A DNA stretch of 64,000 bases from Escherichia phage Ec_Makalu_001. The translations under genes and the position numbers were made by a program. Positions 974-58,195 of this stretch are shown piece after piece. Position 1 is the stretch's first letter. Each line of letters starts with the position of its first letter. The DNA lies in sequence record MN894885.1, one strand, 5' to 3'. The notes below the pieces were generated by a model that was not told the DNA's origin, made no database searches, and saw only the letters and a list, made by a program, of their open reading frames with translations.

Positions 974-1138
974 TTAGAATAGTGATGTAACGAGGCCGAA
1001 ATAGTATCGATCTCGTCTTGGTATTTGTTCTGTTATAAAGTCTGCTGTACTAACAACAATCTTTAACAGAAGTGGATGACCAACGGAGCCATAAACCGGA
1101 CCTTCTGTTTGATGTAATACATTGATTTTGTTAGACAT
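974..1138 (-). CDS. hypothetical small protein (54 aa)
   Basis: Manually found ORF below the 60-aa track cutoff; ATG at 1136-1138; position between hoc and inh. Confidence 0.25.
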   Translation of the reverse strand: MSNKINVLHQTEGPVYGSVGHPLLLKIVVSTADFITEQIPRRDRYYFGLVTSLF

Positions 1139-1216
1139 GTAGTATCCTCTTTTAATTGCATAACGGAACTACAATTAAAATTATAACAAATATTTCACAA
1201 CTTTTATCACCCAAAA

Positions 1217-1942
1217 TTACTTGAGTGTGTGGAATTGGCTATGTTTAGTCTCTCGCACCTTGACAGACCCATCGCGTTTGATATAATAGATCAGTGACTT
1301 GAGGGTGTCGTGTACATACGCGTGCGGGAAACGCTCTGGATACTTCTTCCAATCTGGAGTATTAACGATCCAGTCGAAAATCCACCACGGGCAGGAGTAG
1401 TAACCACGACCGCCACCGATCAAGCAAATGGTCGGACGGAAACCAGTAAGATCACAAAATGAATCAGTGTCATGTGCAGGAGAACGATGCTCTGCTTCGT
1501 CAGAGAAAATGTTTGCTACCGGAGATTCCACTTTAACTTCCGGTGCTTCTTCAACATCTGACTTAACTTCTTCGACCACTGGTTCAACTGCTGGAGATTC
1601 TTCTTTTGTTTCTTCAATGACGATCTCAGGTTCTTTCATTGCTTCAACCAGAGACGGATCAACTTCGTCGAATACCACTTTATCATCTGCGGTATCTGCT
1701 GCCAGAATAAGGTCGTTAATACTGGTTCCTTCTGCCGGAGTTTCTTCTTCCATTTCGGAAGCCAGTTTAGTTAATTCGGTTTCTACGAACTCGATCATGT
1801 TCTCTAGTGATAAAGTCTTTTTGACCTTGATATCAAATTGTTTTGCATAGTCTGCTAATTCTGTTTTAGCTGTTTTCTGTGCTTCTTTGTCGTCGGACGC
1901 CGCAATAGCGCGGAGTTCTTCGAAATATTCTTTATCAAACAT
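1217..1942 (-). CDS. acidic protein, possible Inh-like inhibitor of prohead protease
   Basis: 241-aa ORF; position between hoc and uvsW as for T4 inh; acidic central region; no strong motif recognised. Confidence 0.35.
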   Translation of the reverse strand: MFDKEYFEELRAIAASDDKEAQKTAKTELADYAKQFDIKVKKTLSLENMIEFVETELTKLASEMEEETPAEGTSINDLILAADTADDKVVFDEVDPSLVEAMKEPEIVIEETKEESPAVEPVVEEVKSDVEEAPEVKVESPVANIFSDEAEHRSPAHDTDSFCDLTGFRPTICLIGGGRGYYSCPWWIFDWIVNTPDWKKYPERFPHAYVHDTLKSLIYYIKRDGSVKVRETKHSQFHTLK

Positions 1943-1968
1943 GCTATTCTCCTGATTGGGGGTGTTTG

Positions 1969-1976
1969 TATAAATA
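1969..1976 (+). promoter_or_regulatory. T4-type late promoter motif TATAAATA upstream of uvsW
   Basis: Exact TATAAATA ~20 nt upstream of uvsW ATG. Confidence 0.5.
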
Positions 1977-1997
1977 TTTGTATACTGTATTTATTGA

Positions 1998-3515
1998 GTG
2001 AGGCTATTCGCTATGCAAGATATTAAAATTCACTTTCTGAACTACTCCCACGTTCAAATTGAATGTAGCGATTCAATTTTATTAGAAATGCGAGATTATT
2101 TTAGTTTTGAAGTCGAGGGAGCGCGGTTTCAAAAAAGATTTAAGTATGGCGGATGGGATGGGCGTATTCGTCTTTTAGATTACAATGGAAAGTTGCCAAT
2201 CGGACTAACTAAAACCGTTGGTATCTTCGCTAAAAATATGGGTTATTCTGTTTGGGTAGACCCTCGCTTATTCGAGAAAGAACAGGTTACAGAAGAAGAG
2301 ATCACAAAATGGTGTAACGACTTAGAATTATATTCCGGTGCTAACAGGATCACCCCGCATTGGTATCAATCAAAGGCTGTCTTTGAAGGTATTCATCATA
2401 AACGCCGTATGTTAGTTTTGCCTACGTCCGCTGGTAAATCTGCGATTGCTTGTATGTTGTCTCGCTGGTACTTAGAGAACTACGAAGGGAAAGTGCTGAT
2501 CATCGTTCCTACCACGTCTCTAGTGCTGCAAATGCGAGATGACTTTGTTGATTATCGCCAGTTTCCTTATGAAGCAATTCATACTATCATGAGCGGTACT
2601 AGTAAACACGTAGGTGATCGCCTGATCGTTGTTAGTACGTGGCAATCTGCATGTAAACAACCTCGTGAGTGGTTCCAACAATTCGGGATGGTTATTGTTG
2701 ACGAATGTCACAAGGCCACGGCTAAAAACCTGCTAAACATCGTTACTGATATGGATCATTGCCAATTTAAGATCGGTATGACTGGTTCCCCTCGTGACGG
2801 GAAAGCTAACATGATGCAGTATGTCGGGCTTTTCGGTGATATTTCTAAGATCGTGAGTATTGACCGCCTGATGGAAGAAGGTCAAGTGACAAAACTGAAA
2901 ATTAACTGTCTTTTTCTTCGTTATACCGATGAGGAATGTAGCGCGGTTAAGGGGAGAGAATATGCGGAAGAGATCAAGTATATTACATCTAACCCACGAC
3001 GTAATAAGTTTGCTTGCAATTTGGCGCTAAAACTCGCTAAGAAGGGCGAAAACGTATTCCTGATGTTCCGCAACACTAAGCACGGAAAACTTATGTATGA
3101 TGCGTTACAGAAGGTACATGACAAGGTTTATTATATTGACGGTGGAGTTAAGACAGAAGAACGTGATGAATTTAAGAAAATGGCGGAAGGTGACACCGGG
3201 ATCATTTGTGTTGCGTCTTATGGTGTGTTCTCTACTGGTGTTTCCATCAAGAACTTGCATCATGTTATTTTCGGTCATCCAGTGAAGGAATCAACCATCG
3301 TTCGTCAGAGTATCGGTCGTGCATTGCGTAAACATGGTTCTAAGGATATTGCTACCGTTTGGGATCTTATCGATCATTTGGCGGTGAAGACAAAGAGCAA
3401 GAATGCTAAGAAACAGTTTAGTCACCTTAATTATGCTCTTAAACACGCGCTTTTGAGGATACAGCTTTACAATACCGATAAATTTGAGTATGCCACGAAA
3501 ACCATCGAGATTTAA
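1998..3515 (+). CDS. uvsW: UvsW RNA-DNA and DNA-DNA helicase (SF2)
   Basis: 505 aa; strong similarity to T4 UvsW along whole length (Walker A LPTSAGKS, DECH box, helicase C motifs); TATAAATA late-promoter motif upstream. Confidence 0.9.
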   Translation: MRLFAMQDIKIHFLNYSHVQIECSDSILLEMRDYFSFEVEGARFQKRFKYGGWDGRIRLLDYNGKLPIGLTKTVGIFAKNMGYSVWVDPRLFEKEQVTEEEITKWCNDLELYSGANRITPHWYQSKAVFEGIHHKRRMLVLPTSAGKSAIACMLSRWYLENYEGKVLIIVPTTSLVLQMRDDFVDYRQFPYEAIHTIMSGTSKHVGDRLIVVSTWQSACKQPREWFQQFGMVIVDECHKATAKNLLNIVTDMDHCQFKIGMTGSPRDGKANMMQYVGLFGDISKIVSIDRLMEEGQVTKLKINCLFLRYTDEECSAVKGREYAEEIKYITSNPRRNKFACNLALKLAKKGENVFLMFRNTKHGKLMYDALQKVHDKVYYIDGGVKTEERDEFKKMAEGDTGIICVASYGVFSTGVSIKNLHHVIFGHPVKESTIVRQSIGRALRKHGSKDIATVWDLIDHLAVKTKSKNAKKQFSHLNYALKHALLRIQLYNTDKFEYATKTIEI

Positions 3516-17866: not shown

Positions 17867-17895
17867 ATTGTAGGGGAGTTATCCTCCCCTGTCAA
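17867..17895 (-). promoter_or_regulatory. early sigma70-like promoter, palindromic spacer (TTGACA-GGGGAGGATAACTCCCC-TACAAT); drives 5-gene cassette
   Basis: Minus-strand -35/-10 with 17-bp inverted-repeat spacer, A-rich UP region. Confidence 0.55.
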
Positions 17896-18110: not shown

Positions 18111-18139
18111 ATTATAGGGGATCTCCCGATCCCCGTCAA
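18111..18139 (-). promoter_or_regulatory. early sigma70-like promoter, palindromic spacer (TTGACG-GGGATCGGGAGATCCCC-TATAAT)
   Basis: Minus-strand; consensus -10; two GATC in spacer. Confidence 0.55.
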
Positions 18140-21394: not shown

Positions 21395-21423
21395 AGTATA
21401 GGGGATCTGCGATCCCCTGTCAA
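21395..21423 (-). promoter_or_regulatory. early sigma70-like promoter, palindromic spacer (TTGACA-GGGGATCGCAGATCCCC-TATACT)
   Basis: Minus-strand; upstream of duplicate copy B. Confidence 0.5.
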
Positions 21424-22539: not shown

Positions 22540-22569
22540 ATTATAGGGGAGTTTAACCTCCCCTGTCAA
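22540..22569 (-). promoter_or_regulatory. early sigma70-like promoter, palindromic spacer (TTGACA-GGGGAGGTTAAACTCCCC-TATAAT)
   Basis: Minus-strand; 18-bp inverted-repeat spacer. Confidence 0.5.
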
Positions 22570-22934: not shown

Positions 22935-22963
22935 AGTATAGGGGATACGTGATCCCCTGTCAA
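22935..22963 (-). promoter_or_regulatory. early sigma70-like promoter, palindromic spacer (TTGACA-GGGGATCACGTATCCCC-TATACT)
   Basis: Minus-strand; upstream of 103-aa gene. Confidence 0.5.
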
Positions 22964-31652: not shown

Positions 31653-32129
31653 TTAATCATGACCGTGGTTGGCAAGATCCGCTCGTGTCTTATCTTTGTG
31701 ATTTCCTACGTCAAAGACACGATAGCCGTTTTCTCGGAGAACTTTAATCACTTCTGGGTTATCCTCAAAGACTCCCACCACTTCATCTTTATCAAATGAT
31801 TTAATTACCTCTAATTTGATGTGATAGTCTTTACGGGAATCGGTACGGCCTCTCATAAAGATTTTATCAAAACGCACCCCGTTAGAAATTAACCAATCAA
31901 TTGTTTCCATGTAAGCATGTGAACTTCGTCCGGTGAGGATGTAAATCAAATGACCGTTGTCCGAAAGAGCATTGATAACACGAATTACATCGTAAATGGG
32001 GGAATCTCCCCCACATGCCTTGTTATATTCGATCCATGACTCGACTTTATCAAGATTTTCGGTTGGCATCTTTGCTAGTCGATGCGTTGGATCTGTGATC
32101 GTAAAATCTAAATCGACAAAATATATCAT
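31653..32129 (-). CDS. HAD-like phosphatase
   Basis: 158 aa; N-terminal DxD-type motif FVDLDFTIT and GR-type motif ILTGRS; coupled to nrdB. Confidence 0.45.
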   Translation of the reverse strand: MIYFVDLDFTITDPTHRLAKMPTENLDKVESWIEYNKACGGDSPIYDVIRVINALSDNGHLIYILTGRSSHAYMETIDWLISNGVRFDKIFMRGRTDSRKDYHIKLEVIKSFDKDEVVGVFEDNPEVIKVLRENGYRVFDVGNHKDKTRADLANHGHD

Positions 32130-33286
32130 AGATATTTCCCGAATCGGTTGTAGTCGTCGTCTGTTAAATCGGTATTAACCTGAGATACCAGATACATAAT
32201 CTCTACTTCTTGCGCCGCGTTTTGAACTTCGTCAGAGTTTAACCACTTACGCATCCACGGTAAAGGATGACGACGAACACTAAACGGGCTTTTCAGTCCG
32301 GCAGCACGCATACGGGAATCTGCCAGGTATTCTACATAGGTTTTCAGAATTTCCGGTGACAGGTTAGGAATTGCCCCCATTGCGAATAAGTGATCTACCC
32401 ATTCTTTTTCTTGCTCGACAACATCCAGAAAGATTTTCGTTGCTTCGTCTTCAAGTTCTTCCGCAATCTGTTTCCACTCATCACCATCAGCCCCCGTTTG
32501 CCATTGACGAATAATGTATTGTGTTCCTTTTAAGTGAAGTTGTTCATCACGCGCAATAAATTTCATGATCTTCGCGTTACCTTCCAGTAAACCACGTTCG
32601 GCAAAGCTGAAAGTACATGCAAAGGACACATAAAAACGGATTGCTTCCAAAGCATTAACGCAGTGTGCACACAGATAAATCGACGCCATCAGATCTCGTT
32701 TTGTATCTTCAAAAACTCTTCTTGCATCATCTAATGCTGTCTGGTCGTCTCGTTCTTCCCAATAGCGGAGATCTTCTTTTGCGTTCTCATACTTACGAAT
32801 CCAATAAAGAACATCATCATAATATTGCCCGATAGATTCCGCTCGCTTCATGATAGCAGGGTTATCGATGATCTGGTCAAACTCACTAGCCGGATCAATG
32901 AAACAGTTACGCATAATGTGAGTATAACTGCGGCTATGAATTGTCTCGCTGAATGTCCAGGTTTGTAACCATGTATCGAGAGTTGGATCAGATACAATTG
33001 GACCAAATGCTGCGGACGGTGCGCGACCTTGAATAGAATCAAGTAATGTCTGATACTTCAAGTTTTCTGTAAAGAAACGTTTTTCAACATCGCCCATATT
33101 CAGATATTGAATGCGGTCGGTTGCAAGTGAAATCTCTTCTGGACGCCAGAAAAATGACAGAGATTTTTCAATTAATTCTTCAAATACTTGATGACGCTGA
33201 ATGTCATAGCGAGCAATCCCTAAATCACTACCCAGAAACATTGGTTCGTTCATAATATCAACATGTTCGCGGTTAAATACGCTCAT
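32126..33286 (-). CDS. nrdB: ribonucleotide reductase small subunit (class Ia beta)
   Basis: 386 aa; di-iron ligand regions and C-terminal tail typical of NrdB; uninterrupted ORF. Confidence 0.9.
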   Translation of the reverse strand: MSVFNREHVDIMNEPMFLGSDLGIARYDIQRHQVFEELIEKSLSFFWRPEEISLATDRIQYLNMGDVEKRFFTENLKYQTLLDSIQGRAPSAAFGPIVSDPTLDTWLQTWTFSETIHSRSYTHIMRNCFIDPASEFDQIIDNPAIMKRAESIGQYYDDVLYWIRKYENAKEDLRYWEERDDQTALDDARRVFEDTKRDLMASIYLCAHCVNALEAIRFYVSFACTFSFAERGLLEGNAKIMKFIARDEQLHLKGTQYIIRQWQTGADGDEWKQIAEELEDEATKIFLDVVEQEKEWVDHLFAMGAIPNLSPEILKTYVEYLADSRMRAAGLKSPFSVRRHPLPWMRKWLNSDEVQNAAQEVEIMYLVSQVNTDLTDDDYNRFGKYL

Positions 33287-33301: not shown

Positions 33302-33469
33302 TCACTTTTTAATACAAAAGAACTTAGTATTTCTGTTTATGTCTCTATCCTGTTGCAATTCCTGCATGGCTTCAAAACAACTTTGATGTGATGAAAACTC
33401 TACGCTGGTAACAGTTCCTTTATTATATACCCCGACACTAACGGAAAGCAATAACCATAATGTAGCCAT
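33302..33469 (-). CDS. small hydrophobic-N-terminus protein (55 aa), tandem paralogue 1
   Basis: Manual ORF MATLWLLLSVSVGVYNKG...; TAATG start/stop overlap with paralogue 2. Confidence 0.35.
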   Translation of the reverse strand: MATLWLLLSVSVGVYNKGTVTSVEFSSHQSCFEAMQELQQDRDINRNTKFFCIKK

Positions 33470-33642
33470 TAGTTCACCTTCTGCTTTTCAATGCAATACA
33501 GATTCATAAAGCGTTTATTGTCTTCGCGGATAATCTCGCGAGCTTTAACGCAATCCTGCTTTGTTGCAAACTCAATGCTTGACATATTTCCGTAATTATA
33601 CATTGAATTGCTTATTGCAATCAATAACCATACAGTAGCCAT
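33469..33642 (-). CDS. small hydrophobic-N-terminus protein (57 aa), tandem paralogue 2
   Basis: Manual ORF MATVWLLIAISNSMYNYG...; TAATG overlap with upstream 76-aa ORF. Confidence 0.35.
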   Translation of the reverse strand: MATVWLLIAISNSMYNYGNMSSIEFATKQDCVKAREIIREDNKRFMNLYCIEKQKVN

Positions 33643-33872
33643 TATCCGACAACCTCAAAACATTTATCATCAGGAAGAATAGCCCATTCTACGCCGTATT
33701 CATCCTTAACGTAGTAGCAAGTCCCATCATGTCGAGCATCATATTCATCACCGACAACAAAGCTATCAGCTAGCTCAAAATCTACAGCAACACATTTTAA
33801 TTTTGCCATAATAAAATCCTCATTTGTTTTTGATGGTTGCATTATAGCGGGGATTTCTCCCCGCGTCAACAC
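33642..33872 (-). CDS. hypothetical protein (76 aa)
   Basis: ORF with promoter (TTGACG - palindromic spacer - TATAAT) at ~33845-33875. Confidence 0.4.
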   Translation of the reverse strand: MLTRGEIPAIMQPSKTNEDFIMAKLKCVAVDFELADSFVVGDEYDARHDGTCYYVKDEYGVEWAILPDDKCFEVVG

Positions 33873-33877
33873 TTATT

Positions 33878-36121
33878 TTACAGTTTGCAAGATGAACATT
33901 CGCTAGCGTCTTCCGTACCATCAGCACCATCACGCACGTTAGCGTAATACAGTGTCTTGAGGCCGTAATATTGAGCAAACAGCATATCATCTAACACATC
34001 AGCAATATCGACTTTACCAGTCTTATAAGTGCTTGGATCGTAGGATGTATTGGAACTAATCGCCTGATCTACAAACTTCTGCATGATCGCTGCCAGTGTC
34101 AGATAAGGTTTGTTACCTTTCTTGATCAGTGTCCAAAGCAGGTCAATAACATCAGCATTATTCTCTACGTTCGGAATAACCTGATTAAATTGTCCTTCCT
34201 TTGATCCTTTAACCGATACAATCCCGCGAGGCGGTTCTATTCCATTGGTGCTATTAGATACCTGAGAAGACGACTCACAAGGCATCAGCGCCGATAGTGT
34301 ACTGTTACGAATGCCATATTTTTTCAGGTCTTCGCGCAGTTCTTCCCAATCCATCTCATACACCGGGTCAACCAGTTCATCTACTGTCTTTTTGTACCAG
34401 TCAATAGGAAGTTCACCGCGACCATAACGTGTTTCGTGCATCAGTTCGCAAGCGCCCTTCTCTTTTGCTAGCTGCACACTAGCTTTAATCAGAGCATATT
34501 GCAAGCGTTCAAACGTTTTATGCGTAAACTCGTTAGCGTCTTCATATGTGAAGAAATTATCCGCCAGATATGATGCAAAGTTAGTCACACCAACACCCAG
34601 AGAGCGACGTTTCTTAGCTGTCAGTGCTTGTTTTACAGGATAATCCTGATAATCTAACAGGTTATCAAGTGCACGCACCATAACCATAGCGATCCGCTCT
34701 ACTTCTTCCATGTTTTCGATATCGAAATTACCTAAAACATATGCTGCCAAAGTGCATAGGCTGATCTCTGAATCATCACGACCCATCGGTTTTGTCGGCA
34801 GAGCGATTTCACAACACAGGTTAGATTGTTTAATCGGTGCTACATTACGAATAAACGCCCCGTGATTGTTCATGTTGTCTGTGAACGCTGGATAGATTCG
34901 ACCAGTGTTAAAACGTTCAATTGCCACCGCTAAAAACAGGTCTTCGGCTTTAACACGAGTTTTACGAACACTCGGATCTTTTTCCAGTTTTTCATAAAGC
35001 TGGCGGAATCCTTCCTCATCTCGGAAGTACAGATCCCACAACAAGCCACCCGCAACATCTGGACTAAACAGAGTAATGTAATCACGTTTAAGGAATCGCT
35101 CTACCATCAGGTTATTAATCTGTACGCCGTAATCAAGATGACGAATGCGGTTATCTTCTACCCCTTTGTTGTTCTTCAACACAATAAGACTTTCAAACTC
35201 TAAATGCCACATTGGGTAATAGAGAGTCGCCGCCCCGCCACGAATACCGCCTTGTGAGCATGACTTAACGGCAGTCTGAAAATGTTTCCAGAATGGGATA
35301 ACGCCAGTATGACGAACTTCACCATGCCCGATCTTAGATCCTTCCGCTCGAATCATACCAGCATTGATACCGATACCAGCACGCTTACTAATATACTTGA
35401 TGATTGCATTTGCTGTTTCGTTGATGCCCTGCAATGAGTCATCACTTTCAATCACCACACACGAACTAAATTGTCGTGTTGGAGTACGCACACCAGCCAT
35501 AATCGGAGTAGGCAGAGAAATTTGCTTATTCGCAACAGCATTATAAAAATCAATCACATGTTCAAGTCGATTTTCTGTCTCTTCTTGATGTAAGCACATA
35601 CCGATCAGCATATAAGCAAATTGCGGTGTTTCAATGATTTTCTTAGTGCTGCGATCCTGAACAAGATATTTCTCTTTTAACTGCATTGCACCAGCATAGG
35701 TCATTTTAAAGTCAAGTTTATGGTCGATGAATTTCTCCAGATATTCCACTTCTTCACGGGAATACTTTTGCAGAATTTCGCGATCATATTTTCCGGTTGC
35801 AATATTACGCTCAATATGGCTGTAAAAATCAATTGGTTGGAATTGACCGTATACTGATTTACGAAGCGCGAACATTGCAAGGTTACTTGCTACATATTGA
35901 TAATCAGGTGTTTCTACAGTAATGTTATCTGCGGCGACCTTAATCAATACTTTCTGGATATCGTTAGTAGACATACCTTCTGTCAGAAGTGGTTCAACCA
36001 TATCAAACAATTCATATGGATCAACGTTATGACCTTCGGCTGCCGCTTCCAGAATTTTCATTACTTTTTCTCTTTCAAACGGAACAGTCAGACCGGAAGA
36101 CTTAACAACATTTTTAATCAT
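33878..36121 (-). CDS. nrdA: ribonucleotide reductase large subunit (class Ia alpha)
   Basis: 747 aa; catalytic NLCCEIALP region, C-terminal CSSC-type tail. Confidence 0.9.
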   Translation of the reverse strand: MIKNVVKSSGLTVPFEREKVMKILEAAAEGHNVDPYELFDMVEPLLTEGMSTNDIQKVLIKVAADNITVETPDYQYVASNLAMFALRKSVYGQFQPIDFYSHIERNIATGKYDREILQKYSREEVEYLEKFIDHKLDFKMTYAGAMQLKEKYLVQDRSTKKIIETPQFAYMLIGMCLHQEETENRLEHVIDFYNAVANKQISLPTPIMAGVRTPTRQFSSCVVIESDDSLQGINETANAIIKYISKRAGIGINAGMIRAEGSKIGHGEVRHTGVIPFWKHFQTAVKSCSQGGIRGGAATLYYPMWHLEFESLIVLKNNKGVEDNRIRHLDYGVQINNLMVERFLKRDYITLFSPDVAGGLLWDLYFRDEEGFRQLYEKLEKDPSVRKTRVKAEDLFLAVAIERFNTGRIYPAFTDNMNNHGAFIRNVAPIKQSNLCCEIALPTKPMGRDDSEISLCTLAAYVLGNFDIENMEEVERIAMVMVRALDNLLDYQDYPVKQALTAKKRRSLGVGVTNFASYLADNFFTYEDANEFTHKTFERLQYALIKASVQLAKEKGACELMHETRYGRGELPIDWYKKTVDELVDPVYEMDWEELREDLKKYGIRNSTLSALMPCESSSQVSNSTNGIEPPRGIVSVKGSKEGQFNQVIPNVENNADVIDLLWTLIKKGNKPYLTLAAIMQKFVDQAISSNTSYDPSTYKTGKVDIADVLDDMLFAQYYGLKTLYYANVRDGADGTEDASECSSCKL

Positions 36122-36471: not shown

Positions 36472-37704
36472 TTATACTGCCATTTGAGCGGTGATTGCCG
36501 GATGGCTTTGATAGTTGTGAATTTTAAAGTCTTTCGGAGTTTTTGTCAATACCTCATCTAAAGATTTAAATTCCGGCAACTCAATTGTTGGTTTATCAAA
36601 CGGAACACGGCTTAACTGTTCCATCACTTGGTCAAAGTGATTTTTGTAAATGTGAGTATCTCCGCCGGAGAAAATCAGTTCTCCTACTTCGAGATCACAC
36701 ATTTTCGCTATGATGTGAGTTAACAGCGCATAGCTGGCGACGTTAAAGGGCAAGCCCAAAAAGCTGTCTACGCTTCGCTGAAACCACATACAAGACAGTT
36801 TACCCTCATTGACATAGAATTGCACGAACGGATGACATACACCTAATACAGCATTATGTGTTCCTTGTACGTTCCATGAGTCAATGATGATACGTCGATC
36901 CGTTGGATTGTTTTTAATTTGTTCAATCACGTTTTGTAACTGGTCTTCCCAAATCTTCGGGCGATAGACATATTCTTCATCGTCTTTAGTGCTCGATGTG
37001 TCTATGTCCATACTAGCAAAGATCGTGGTATCTGGCGCTAAAATATCCCCGCCTAGATAATCACTATCAAGCAGATAACCGAAATAACCATCATCTACCC
37101 ATTCCTGGAATCCCCACAAGCAATATGCATCATTAACAAAATTAGATTGAGTCTTCCAGTGGTCTGCTACTAAGAATTGATTATATTCAGAATCAAACTC
37201 TTCATAACGCATACCACGCCAGATAGCACATAAACGGTCTTCTGTGTCGTTGGTTGGCGTAAAGTCTTCTACCCACGGGTGTTTAAATGTATGTGTATAT
37301 TTGCTCTTAACGCGCTTAATTTTGATTTCACCGTGTGGATGAATCGGTTTGCGTCGCCACGCCATACCATACATATTGCCGACATTATAACCATTGAATC
37401 GCAAGGGATTCTTTTCTTTCATATCAAGACAGTTGCCGCGCCAAATATCAAATGCTTCCTCGTCAAACTTTCCGCGTGTAATTTCCTGTAAGCGACGGCG
37501 GTCAAGTGATCCCTCCATAAACCATAGCAATTCGCCAATTACAGAGGCTGTAGCCATCTTTTTAGTGGTCAGTAATGGGAAACCCTTGCTTAAATCAATT
37601 CGCATCTCTGTGCCGAATTTAGAGAGCGTACCTACCCCCGTTCGGTCTTCACGAGGCCAGCCATTATCAAGAACATCACGCAATAGTTTCAAATATTCTT
37701 TCAT
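36472..37704 (-). CDS. td: thymidylate synthase with large internal insertion
   Basis: 410 aa; N- and C-terminal thirds align to ThyA/T4 Td (DRTGVGT, catalytic Cys in LGVCHPFVQFY, LGLPFNVASYALL, C-terminus PKDFKIHNYQSHPAITAQMAV); ~120 extra residues between WRRKP and DRRIIIDSWN. Confidence 0.8.
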   Translation of the reverse strand: MKEYLKLLRDVLDNGWPREDRTGVGTLSKFGTEMRIDLSKGFPLLTTKKMATASVIGELLWFMEGSLDRRRLQEITRGKFDEEAFDIWRGNCLDMKEKNPLRFNGYNVGNMYGMAWRRKPIHPHGEIKIKRVKSKYTHTFKHPWVEDFTPTNDTEDRLCAIWRGMRYEEFDSEYNQFLVADHWKTQSNFVNDAYCLWGFQEWVDDGYFGYLLDSDYLGGDILAPDTTIFASMDIDTSSTKDDEEYVYRPKIWEDQLQNVIEQIKNNPTDRRIIIDSWNVQGTHNAVLGVCHPFVQFYVNEGKLSCMWFQRSVDSFLGLPFNVASYALLTHIIAKMCDLEVGELIFSGGDTHIYKNHFDQVMEQLSRVPFDKPTIELPEFKSLDEVLTKTPKDFKIHNYQSHPAITAQMAV

Positions 37705-58166: not shown

Positions 58167-58195
58167 AGTATAGGGGATCACCGATCCCCTGTCAA
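58167..58195 (-). promoter_or_regulatory. early sigma70-like promoter, palindromic spacer (TTGACA-GGGGATCGGTGATCCCC-TATACT)
   Basis: Minus-strand; upstream of 51-aa gene. Confidence 0.5.

What the first reader, a model, noticed from the sequence alone, without database searches (positions are those of the whole stretch)
33302..33872. Tandem small paralogues with hydrophobic N-termini between nrdA and nrdB, linked by TAATG overlaps
Two manually found ORFs (55 and 57 aa; MATLWLLLSVSV... and MATVWLLIAISN...) are clear tandem duplicates, each starting on the stop codon of the gene before it. They sit where T4-like phages carry the nrdA-nrdB spacer genes. Their N-termini look like a single transmembrane or signal segment, suggesting small membrane-associated peptides co-expressed with ribonucleotide reductase.
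Basis: seen in the sequence. Interest (0 to 1): 0.4.

Follow-up and report, generated by a model that had tools for sequence, protein, structure and literature searches.

The report
Duplicated small early phage genes
Two small neighbouring genes between the two ribonucleotide reductase genes of an RB49-like E. coli phage are real, conserved tandem duplicates that are already annotated as hypothetical proteins, and they most likely encode small soluble proteins rather than membrane or secreted peptides.

Summary
On the minus strand, a 57-aa ORF (33642..33469) and a 55-aa ORF (33469..33302) are 38% identical (E 7e-16). Each starts in a TAATG overlap with the stop codon of the gene before it.

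The window is a Krischvirus (RB49-like), 99.9% identical to phage Ec_Makalu_002. These ORFs are RB49p232 and RB49p231, annotated as hypothetical proteins in about 50 genomes, and both belong to phrog_5579.

They are under purifying selection in the annotated frame (dN/dS 0.05 and 0.28, against more than 0.8 in the other two frames).

The membrane/signal-peptide reading is not supported:
- There is no positive N-terminal region, and hydrophobicity is well below the transmembrane range.
- The hydrophobic segment is the best conserved part of the family.
- AlphaFold2 (pLDDT 91) makes it the first strand of a compact β-β-α-β fold.

The family also has two invariant cysteines.

A perfectly conserved early promoter/stem-loop cassette (PeSL) drives a third small ORF, the two paralogues and probably nrdB. 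The spacer is plastic: relatives carry two copies, one copy or none, and some have methyltransferase or homing-endonuclease insertions. Function is unknown; the best guess is a dispensable early host-modulating or counter-defence mini-protein. This is ordinary for T4-like phages.

The parts
33878..36121 (-). nrdA, the large subunit of class Ia ribonucleotide reductase (747 aa). It is the gene upstream of the cassette.
   Evidence: ORF list. Annotated as nrdA in RB49 and Ec_Makalu_002. dN/dS of the 3' 600 nt is 0.017.
33841..33869 (-). PeSL-type early promoter with an embedded stem-loop. The -35 box TTGACG is at 33869..33864. The stem GCGGGGA (33864..33858), loop GAAA and stem TCCCCGC (33853..33847) follow. 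The -10 box TATAAT is at 33846..33841, giving a 17-nt spacer. AT-rich sequence lies just upstream.
   Evidence: The pattern occurs 3 times in the window against 0.21 expected. It is the best promoter match in the region, 11 of 12. The hairpin is present in the minimum-free-energy fold. It is 29/29 identical in all 17 Krischvirus loci examined. GenBank HE978309 (GEC-3S) annotates a promoter here. It matches the published RB49/phi1 PeSL design, TTGACA-N17-TATAAT with a G(n)-loop-C(n) stem (PMC2839356, PMC4122927).
33642..33809 (-). ORF3, a 55-aa acidic small protein (MAKLKCVAV...; the RB49p233 homologue). It is the first gene of the cassette. Its Shine-Dalgarno sequence GAGGA is at 33821..33817.
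   Evidence: phrog_16302, E 1.2e-40. dN/dS 0.178 in frame against about 1.5 in the other frames. Annotated in relatives.
33469..33642 (-). p57, the upstream paralogue (57 aa; the RB49p232 homologue). Its ATG overlaps the TAA of ORF3 (TAATG).
   Evidence: phrog_5579, E 2e-23. dN/dS 0.047. AlphaFold2 β-β-α-β model with pLDDT 91.3.
33302..33469 (-). p55, the downstream paralogue (55 aa; the RB49p231 homologue). Its ATG overlaps the TAA of p57 (TAATG). An AAGGTG Shine-Dalgarno sequence lies 5 nt upstream of the ATG.
   Evidence: phrog_5579, E 6.9e-23. dN/dS 0.278. The BFVD model of the orthologue superposes on the p57 model, TM 0.84-0.87, rmsd 1.6 Å.
32126..33286 (-). nrdB, the small subunit of ribonucleotide reductase (386 aa). 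It starts 15 nt after the p55 stop, behind a GAGGTGA Shine-Dalgarno sequence. It is the last member considered of the same probable transcription unit.
   Evidence: Annotation. dN/dS of the 5' 600 nt is 0.054.

Best explanation
p57 and p55 are two old tandem duplicates of an accessory phage gene belonging to the uncharacterised family phrog_5579.

**Expression.** They are transcribed early in infection from a PeSL, a consensus sigma-70 promoter with a built-in stem-loop just downstream of nrdA. They lie on one mRNA with a third small ORF upstream and probably nrdB downstream. TAATG stop/start overlaps couple their translation to the preceding gene.

**Protein.** Each product is a small soluble cytoplasmic β-β-α-β domain of about 55 residues.
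- The hydrophobic N-terminus is the first, buried β-strand. Because it is apolar on both faces, it probably also forms a dimer interface.
- Two invariant cysteines sit at the start of the helix and in the last strand. The topology suggests they lie close together.

**Role.** The genes are dispensable and are gained, fused and lost by recombination in a plastic spacer. The most likely role is that of a typical early phage mini-protein: binding and modulating a host protein, for host takeover or counter-defence. The faster-evolving downstream copy would then be a diverged specificity variant.

**Shown:** gene reality, paralogy, conservation, promoter motif, dispensability, predicted fold and lack of membrane features.

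**Inferred:** early timing, co-transcription with nrdB, dimerisation, cysteine proximity and the host-binding role.
For: **Paralogy**
- 38% identity, E 7e-16, and a shared PHROG.

**Coding and selection**
- dN/dS is 0.047 for p57 and 0.278 for p55 in frame, against 0.8-3.4 in the other frames. nrdB scores 0.054.
- The ORFs are annotated in all relatives.

**Fold**
- AlphaFold2 on a 52-sequence alignment gives pLDDT 91.3 and pTM 0.73, with strands at 5-11, 20-25 and 46-52 and a helix at 28-41.
- A shallower alignment gave the same topology.
- The BFVD model of the paralogue agrees.

**Family signature**
- C31 is invariant. W5, L7, G18, F25 and C50 are at least 90% conserved.
- 50 of 52 members have exactly two cysteines.

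**No membrane features**
-.

**Promoter cassette**
-; literature definition.
- In phage Delraymugoa a methyltransferase cassette is bracketed by two copies of this same PeSL.

**Dispensability and plasticity**
- JSE, AV108 and FL15 have neither copy.
- FL20 and G37-3 have one hybrid copy.
- A metagenome contig carries a 44-aa in-frame fusion.

**Independence from ribonucleotide reductase**
- Homologues occur in an Autographiviridae phage with no annotated reductase, in an Erwinia jumbo phage, and in small-ORF clusters of metagenomic phages.
Against: - The host-binder role is a class-level inference from size, early promoter and dispensability.
- Exactly two invariant cysteines are more typical of a disulfide in an exported protein, or of a metal or redox site, than of a plain binder.
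- Small residues at the positions equivalent to -3 and -1 after the hydrophobic run (S-x-G or S-x-S) would fit a signal-peptidase site.
- Model coordinates could not be inspected, so the cysteine distance and the strand order are not verified.
- A 40%-identical homologue in another metagenomic contig also sits directly upstream of nrdB. A link to the reductase is therefore not fully excluded.
Confidence: 0.6

Rival explanations
1. One reading: the products are small membrane-anchored or secreted peptides. The N-terminal hydrophobic segment would be a transmembrane helix or a short Sec signal peptide. The two invariant cysteines would form a disulfide in the periplasm.
For: - The N-terminal runs are apolar: MATLWLLLSVSVGVY and MATVWLLIAIS.
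- Small residues follow in an S-x-G or S-x-S arrangement that fits the -3/-1 rule (seen in the alignments).
- The family has exactly two invariant cysteines.
Against: - There is no positively charged N-terminal region. p57 and p55 have no K or R there; only 8 of 52 family members do, and 7 of 52 carry acidic residues.
- The 19-residue Kyte-Doolittle maxima are 1.07 and 0.61. The family median is 0.94, and only 1 of 52 members reaches 1.6.
- The hydrophobic run would give a signal peptide of only 13-17 residues.
- The segment is the most conserved part of the family.
- It is modelled at pLDDT about 90 as a β-strand inside the domain.
Confidence: 0.13
2. The products are accessory factors of the phage ribonucleotide reductase. 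A small cysteine-pair redox protein or a metal/cofactor-maintenance partner of NrdB would play this role, in the way YfaE, NrdH or NrdI serve bacterial reductases.
For: - The genes lie between nrdA and nrdB and are probably co-transcribed with nrdB.
- A 40%-identical homologue lies directly upstream of an nrdB in an unrelated metagenome contig.
- The family has two invariant cysteines.
Against: - Krischviruses JSE, AV108 and FL15 keep nrdA and nrdB but lack both paralogues.
- Homologues occur far from any nrd gene. One is in Enterobacter phage SDFMU_EhYP, which has no annotated reductase. Others are in Erwinia phage Hallingskeid and metagenomic contigs L006 and L010.
- There is no CXXC motif and no Pfam match to thioredoxin, glutaredoxin, ferredoxin or flavodoxin families.
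Confidence: 0.1
3. The ORFs are non-functional leftovers. They would be chance ORFs or decaying duplicates kept only because they lie in the leader of the nrdB transcript.
For: - The genes are dispensable in nature.
- The downstream copy evolves about six times faster at non-synonymous sites than the upstream one.
- Fused and truncated versions exist.
Against: - The dN/dS of p57 (0.047) is as low as that of nrdB (0.054), and p55 is still at 0.278, while the off-frames are at or above 0.8.
- The family is conserved across unrelated phage groups, with 54 cluster representatives at E up to 1e-3 in 1.84 billion proteins.
- It gives a confident, consistent fold.
Confidence: 0.04

Closest known systems
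RB49p232 / RB49p231 (hypothetical proteins of Escherichia phage RB49, NC_005066) and their orthologues in Krischvirus genomes; PHROG family phrog_5579
   Same: These are the same genes. They have the same position between RB49p233 and nrdB and the same 1-nt overlaps. Protein identity is 96-100% for p57 and 84-98% for p55. Both window proteins match phrog_5579 end to end.
   Different: Nothing substantive differs. The family has no assigned function, no Pfam entry and no solved structure. The fold, the invariant residues and the copy-number variation described here are additions, not contradictions.
PeSL + ORFan cassettes of RB49/phi1 (Arbiol et al. 2010, PMC2839356; Comeau et al. 2014, PMC4122927)
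   Same: - It has a near-consensus sigma-70 promoter (TTGACG-N17-TATAAT) with a G(n)-loop-C(n) stem between the boxes and AT-rich sequence upstream.
- A Shine-Dalgarno sequence and an ATG lie downstream.
- It is followed by small genes of unknown function.
- The locus differs between close relatives by insertions and deletions, including a cassette bracketed by two PeSL copies.
   Different: - This PeSL lies between two core genes (nrdA and nrdB), not in one of the large hyperplastic regions.
- The loss of p57 and p55 is explained by recombination between the two paralogues or by replacement next to a homing endonuclease, not by PeSL-PeSL exchange.
- The two papers do not mention this particular locus.
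T4 nrdA-nrdB spacer (mobE homing endonuclease and nrdB.1)
   Same: It is the same intergenic position between the two reductase genes. Several Krischviruses also carry an HNH or homing endonuclease gene there.
   Different: - The paralogue-family profile finds no match in the T4 region.
- nrdB.1 aligns neither to ORF3 nor to the family profile.
- T4 has no tandem pair.

Membership tests
phrog_5579 (phage protein family of unknown function) | A significant full-length match to the family profile. | tested here: met
   p57 scores E 2e-23 (residues 2-53 on profile positions 1-52 of 52). p55 scores E 6.9e-23. 45 of the 52 distant homologues also match.
PeSL regulatory cassette (Arbiol 2010) | Near-consensus sigma-70 -35 and -10 boxes with a 17-nt spacer. 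| tested here: met
   TTGACG-17-TATAAT at 33869..33841, 11 of 12 matches. Published consensus.
PeSL regulatory cassette (Arbiol 2010) | A stable G(n)-loop-C(n) stem-loop between or overlapping the promoter boxes. | tested here: met
   GCGGGGA-GAAA-TCCCCGC. The hairpin is present in the minimum-free-energy and centroid folds. A 7-bp perfect stem was found.
PeSL regulatory cassette (Arbiol 2010) | Association with insertions and deletions of small accessory genes, with cassettes bracketed by PeSL copies. | tested here: met
   The Delraymugoa methyltransferase gene is flanked by two copies of this PeSL. The spacer content varies among relatives.
PeSL regulatory cassette (Arbiol 2010) | Measured promoter and terminator/attenuator activity. 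| not testable with these tools
   This needs reporter fusions or transcript mapping. The published assays used other PeSLs.
Sec signal peptide / single-pass membrane anchor | A positively charged N-terminal region before the hydrophobic core. | tested here: not met
   p57 and p55 have no K or R there. Only 8 of 52 family members do, and 7 of 52 carry D or E.
Sec signal peptide / single-pass membrane anchor | A hydrophobic core long enough for a signal peptide (about 10-15 residues) or a membrane helix (about 19 residues at a Kyte-Doolittle mean of at least 1.6). | tested here: not met
   The 19-residue Kyte-Doolittle maxima are 1.07 and 0.61. The family median is 0.94, and 1 of 52 members reaches 1.6. 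No dedicated predictor (SignalP, TMHMM) was available.
Sec signal peptide / single-pass membrane anchor | Small residues at -3 and -1 of a possible cleavage site. | tested here: inconclusive
   S11-x-G13 or S11-x-S13 follows the hydrophobic run and S11 is conserved. The same residues fit the end of a β-strand and a turn in the model.
T4 nrdA-nrdB spacer genes (mobE, nrdB.1) | Sequence homology to the T4 genes. | tested here: not met
   The family profile has no hit in T4 135000-146000. BLASTP and hhalign against nrdB.1 are negative.
Ribonucleotide reductase helper proteins (YfaE, NrdH, NrdI, thioredoxin/glutaredoxin) | A match to the corresponding Pfam domain, or a CXXC or cluster-binding motif. 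| tested here: not met
   Neither paralogue nor any of the 52 family members gives a credible Pfam hit. The two cysteines are about 19 residues apart, not CXXC.

The most novel reading that the evidence does not exclude
phrog_5579 could be a functionally new class of early phage mini-proteins. In this reading the all-apolar first strand drives homo- or heterodimerisation (p57 with p55). The four invariant cysteines of a dimer would then build a redox-active or metal/iron-sulfur site. That site would be used either to inactivate a host defence or stress sensor, or to tune nucleotide metabolism next to the reductase genes. Nothing found here excludes this, and nothing found here specifically supports it beyond the strict two-cysteine signature and the strand's composition.
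Probability: 0.08. Interest if true: 0.55.

Novelty: already known. Interest (0 to 1): 0.18.

Why it matters
It matters little as a discovery. The ORFs have been annotated since the RB49 genome was deposited, and clusters of small accessory genes behind early promoters are the norm in T4-like phages.

The useful outcomes are corrective and descriptive:
- The hydrophobic N-terminus should not be taken for a membrane segment.
- The family now has a confident fold and a sharp signature, WLL...S.G.YN.G...F...C...C.
- The nrdA-nrdB spacer of Krischviruses is a compact natural series for testing what these mini-proteins do. It offers two, one, fused or zero copies, with or without methyltransferase and homing-endonuclease insertions.

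Tried and rejected
1. **Dependence between ORF3 and p57.** ORF3 is broken in FL20, G37-3 and AV108, which all lack p57. It is intact in all 15 loci that have p57. However, JSE, FL15 and metagenome contig L030 lack an intact p57 and keep ORF3 intact. It is not a rule, and the genomes are not independent. I kept it only as a passing note.
2. **Long multi-repeat proteins as domain fusions.** P0021 (775 aa, 8 matches) and P0035 (351 aa, 5 matches) hit the family profile. They look like translated tandem-repeat DNA and lack the W and second-cysteine signature. I set them aside.
4. **Sequence-based function.** Pfam on the two proteins and on all 52 family members, and a profile search of PDB sequences, returned nothing credible.
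5. **Wider genomic context.** The search for related loci with the family alignment failed for lack of a conserved stretch. With p55 alone it found only two IMG/VR loci. Several distant homologues sit on contigs under 1 kb.
6. **Homology to the T4 spacer genes.** Negative.
7. **Literature.** No paper in the library names these ORFs or the PHROG. The PeSL papers do not discuss this locus. A search for Krischvirus transcriptomes returned nothing relevant.

Full report
**What is in the sequence**

All genes in this part of the window are on the minus strand. In order they are:
- nrdA (36121..33878);
- a 68-nt intergenic region;
- a 55-aa ORF that I call ORF3 (33809..33642);
- a 57-aa ORF, p57 (33642..33469);
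- a 55-aa ORF, p55 (33469..33302);
- after 15 nt, nrdB (33286..32126).

The plus strand reads CATTA at 33467-33471 and at 33640-33644. p57 and p55 align end to end with 38% identity and 69% similarity, E 7e-16.

The mechanical ORF list starts ORF3 at a GTG at 33872. That codon lies inside the promoter described below. The ATG at 33809, behind GAGGA, is the start used in nearly all related records.

**Where the window comes from, and whether the ORFs are known**

The 751-bp stretch around the finding matches 58 phage records at 91.6-99.9% identity. All those fetched are Krischvirus (RB49-like Straboviridae), and the best is Ec_Makalu_002 at 99.9%.

In RB49 the three small ORFs are RB49p233, RB49p232 and RB49p231. 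They have the same one-base overlaps and are annotated as hypothetical proteins. The same is true in every other record fetched.

Both paralogues match phrog_5579 and ORF3 matches phrog_16302; both PHROGs have unknown function. There is no Pfam match. As sequence features these genes are already known.

**Are they real genes?**

I extracted the ORFs from the window and 14 related loci and computed Nei-Gojobori dN/dS over all pairs of distinct sequences.

| Region | dN/dS in the annotated frame | dN/dS in the two other frames |
|---|---|---|
| p57 | 0.047 | 1.39, 3.39 |
| p55 | 0.278 | 0.83, 0.94 |
| ORF3 | 0.178 | 1.53, 1.60 |
| nrdA (3' 600 nt) | 0.017 | 4.37, 2.27 |
| nrdB (5' 600 nt) | 0.054 | 2.31, 1.43 |

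p57 is as constrained as nrdB. p55 evolves about six times faster at non-synonymous sites than p57 but is still under purifying selection.

Shine-Dalgarno sequences precede ORF3 (GAGGA, 7 nt before the ATG), p55 (AAGGTG, 5 nt) and nrdB (GAGGTGA, 4 nt). p57 has only a GAGG 10 nt upstream, so it probably relies on termination-reinitiation at the TAATG (the coupling is an inference).

**The wider family**

A profile of the two paralogues and their close relatives was run against 1.84 billion cluster representatives. It found 54 proteins at E up to 1e-3, nearly all 50-70 aa long.

Their alignment shows one invariant cysteine (C31). W5, L7, G18, F25 and a second cysteine (C50) are at least 90% conserved. 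Of the 52 aligned members, 50 have exactly two cysteines, both in these columns.

In cultured phages outside Krischvirus, homologues occur in three places:
- Enterobacter phage SDFMU_EhYP (Autographiviridae), as an unannotated ORF between the AAA ATPase and the DNA polymerase. That genome has no annotated ribonucleotide reductase.
- The 366-kb Erwinia phage Hallingskeid, among tRNAs and small ORFs.
- More weakly, an Acinetobacter siphovirus.

Metagenomic homologues lie in runs of small ORFs next to GIY-YIG or Dam genes. One 40%-identical homologue lies directly upstream of an nrdB. Each of these other loci has a single copy, so the tandem pair is specific to Krischvirus.

**Membrane or signal segment?**

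The evidence is against it.
- Neither paralogue has a basic residue before the hydrophobic run. Only 8 of 52 family members do, and 7 of 52 have an acidic one.
- The apolar runs are 15 and 11 residues. The best 19-residue Kyte-Doolittle means are 1.07 and 0.61, and only 1 of 52 family members reaches the customary 1.6.
- The segment is the most conserved part of the family. This is unusual for a signal peptide.
- AlphaFold2 with the shallow alignment gave a β-β-α-β topology at pLDDT 69.5. With the 52-sequence alignment it gave the same topology at pLDDT 91.3 and pTM 0.73. The strands are at 5-11, 20-25 and 46-52 and the helix is at 28-41, and the first ten residues have a mean pLDDT of 90.
- The separately computed BFVD model of the p55 orthologue superposes with TM 0.84-0.87 and rmsd 1.6 Å.

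Two points remain in favour of export. The S-x-G or S-x-S after the run would satisfy the -3/-1 rule, and a strict cysteine pair is typical of a periplasmic disulfide. No dedicated predictor was available. I give the exported or membrane reading about 0.13.

**What the fold says**

Two inferences follow from the topology, neither verified on coordinates.
- Strand 1 is apolar on both faces, so the free face of the three-stranded sheet probably packs against a partner (a dimer or a target).
- C31 (first helical turn) and C50 (near the end of strand 3) should be neighbours.

**Transcription context**

Just downstream of the nrdA stop lies TTGACG-cggggagaaatccccgc-TATAAT (33869..33841).
- It is a near-perfect sigma-70 promoter with a 17-nt spacer.
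- The spacer forms a 7-bp G/C stem with a GAAA loop.
- AT-rich sequence lies upstream, and the ORF3 Shine-Dalgarno sequence and ATG lie downstream.

This is the design published for the promoter-early stem-loop (PeSL) cassettes of RB49 and phi1. Those were shown experimentally, for other copies, to act as strong early promoters and as terminators or attenuators, and to mediate shuffling of small accessory genes (PMC2839356; PMC4122927).

The 29-nt element is identical in all 17 related loci examined, although the surrounding DNA differs by about 5%. The GEC-3S record annotates it as a promoter. The window contains at least six more elements of this design.

The likely unit is therefore PeSL-ORF3-p57-p55-nrdB, transcribed early by host RNA polymerase. 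The timing and the extent of the transcript are inferred.

**A plastic spacer**

Among Krischvirus records the nrdA-nrdB interval occurs in several forms.

| Form | Content of the interval | Examples |
|---|---|---|
| a | ORF3-p57-p55 (the majority) | RB49, Ec_Makalu_002, the window |
| b | Form a plus a DNA methyltransferase cassette between nrdA and ORF3, bracketed by two copies of the PeSL | Delraymugoa (cassette and both PeSL copies read in sequence); Aragogtheria and KMB43 (methyltransferase annotated); LF73P4 (unannotated record with the same split match) |
| c | Form a plus an HNH or homing endonuclease gene between p55 and nrdB | G5211 and SSG23 (gene annotated); G2494, SFHK24, PTE-Eco09 and phiS (inferred from matches that stop at the same point before nrdB) |
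| d | One hybrid copy, with the first codons of p57 joined to the body of p55 | FL20, G37-3 |
| e | A 44-aa in-frame fusion lacking the helix and C31 | one metagenome contig |
| f | Neither copy; ORF3 followed by a homing endonuclease | JSE, AV108, FL15 |

The paralogues are therefore dispensable for a Krischvirus that keeps nrdA and nrdB. They are removed by recombination between their similar 5' ends or by replacement.

T4 carries mobE and nrdB.1 in the same interval, and nothing there is related to these ORFs.

**Most likely mechanism**

Taken together, p57 and p55 are best read as diverged duplicates of a small, soluble, early-expressed accessory protein. Such proteins are what T4-like phages use to bind and modulate host proteins. 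The faster-evolving copy may be a specificity variant.

I put about 0.6 on this overall picture. Confidence is high for gene reality, solubility, accessory status and the promoter. It is low for the specific role.

A reductase-helper role gets about 0.1. The main objections are that phages with nrdAB lack the genes and that a phage without an annotated reductase has one. A non-functional remnant gets about 0.04, because of the selection data.

**Verdict**

The membrane or signal interpretation is not supported. The arrangement is typical of T4-like phage accessory regions. Interest is low.

Noticed in passing
window 58195..58167, 22963..22935, 22569..22540, 21423..21395, 18139..18111, 17895..17867 (minus strand): Six more PeSL-type elements: TTGAC(A/G), a G-rich/C-rich hairpin, then TATAAT, TATACT or TACAAT. 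Five of them cluster at 17.8-23 kb, which suggests a hyperplastic region of small early genes there.
   Followed up: partly
L003 (Escherichia phage Delraymugoa OR896825) 1110..2074; also Aragogtheria, KMB43, LF73P4: In Delraymugoa a DNA (cytosine) methyltransferase gene is inserted between nrdA and ORF3, bracketed by two near-identical copies of the nrdA-ORF3 PeSL. This is a textbook PeSL cassette insertion at this exact site. Aragogtheria and KMB43 annotate the same methyltransferase, and the unannotated LF73P4 record shows the same split match.
   Followed up: partly
L017 1679..2218 (G5211), L014 1679..2218 (G37-3), L028 801..1475 (SSG23), L025 1785..2432 (JSE), L030 1732..2271: HNH or homing endonuclease genes sit immediately upstream of nrdB in many Krischviruses, echoing mobE in T4. 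In JSE, AV108 and FL15 the endonuclease is present and both paralogues are absent.
   Followed up: partly
L013 1336..1501 (FL20), L014 1334..1501 (G37-3), L026 2532..2735 (AV108): ORF3 is disrupted by a frameshift or a stop codon in three genomes that lack p57. It is intact in all 15 loci that have p57. It is also intact in JSE, FL15 and contig L030, which lack an intact p57. This may be coincidence or joint decay of the cassette.
   Followed up: partly
L020 1140..1328 (GEC-3S HE978309): ORF3 carries a 21-nt in-frame tandem duplication (…DARRDEYDARHD…).
   Followed up: no
L011 2501..2671 (Enterobacter phage SDFMU_EhYP OQ884031, record 2644..2814): An unannotated 56-aa member of the family (MNTVWLLIAISSGSYNRGNVSSVEF…) lies in a 1.1-kb unannotated gap between the AAA ATPase and DNA polymerase genes of an Autographiviridae phage.
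   Followed up: partly
window 36472..37704 (minus strand): The thymidylate synthase ORF is 410 aa but covers the whole 266-position Pfam profile in one stretch. It therefore carries roughly 144 extra residues inside the domain. JSE annotates a td gene of similar length.
   Followed up: no
window 33624..33595 (minus strand): A second promoter-like site (TTGATT-18-TATAAT, 10 of 12) lies inside the 5' part of p57. It may be chance, because the region as a whole has fewer promoter-like matches than shuffled sequence.
   Followed up: no
P0021 (775 aa) and P0035 (351 aa) from the representative-library search: Two long proteins made of 8 and 5 tandem repeats of about 54 aa match the family profile. 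They look like translated repetitive DNA rather than true multi-domain relatives.
   Followed up: no
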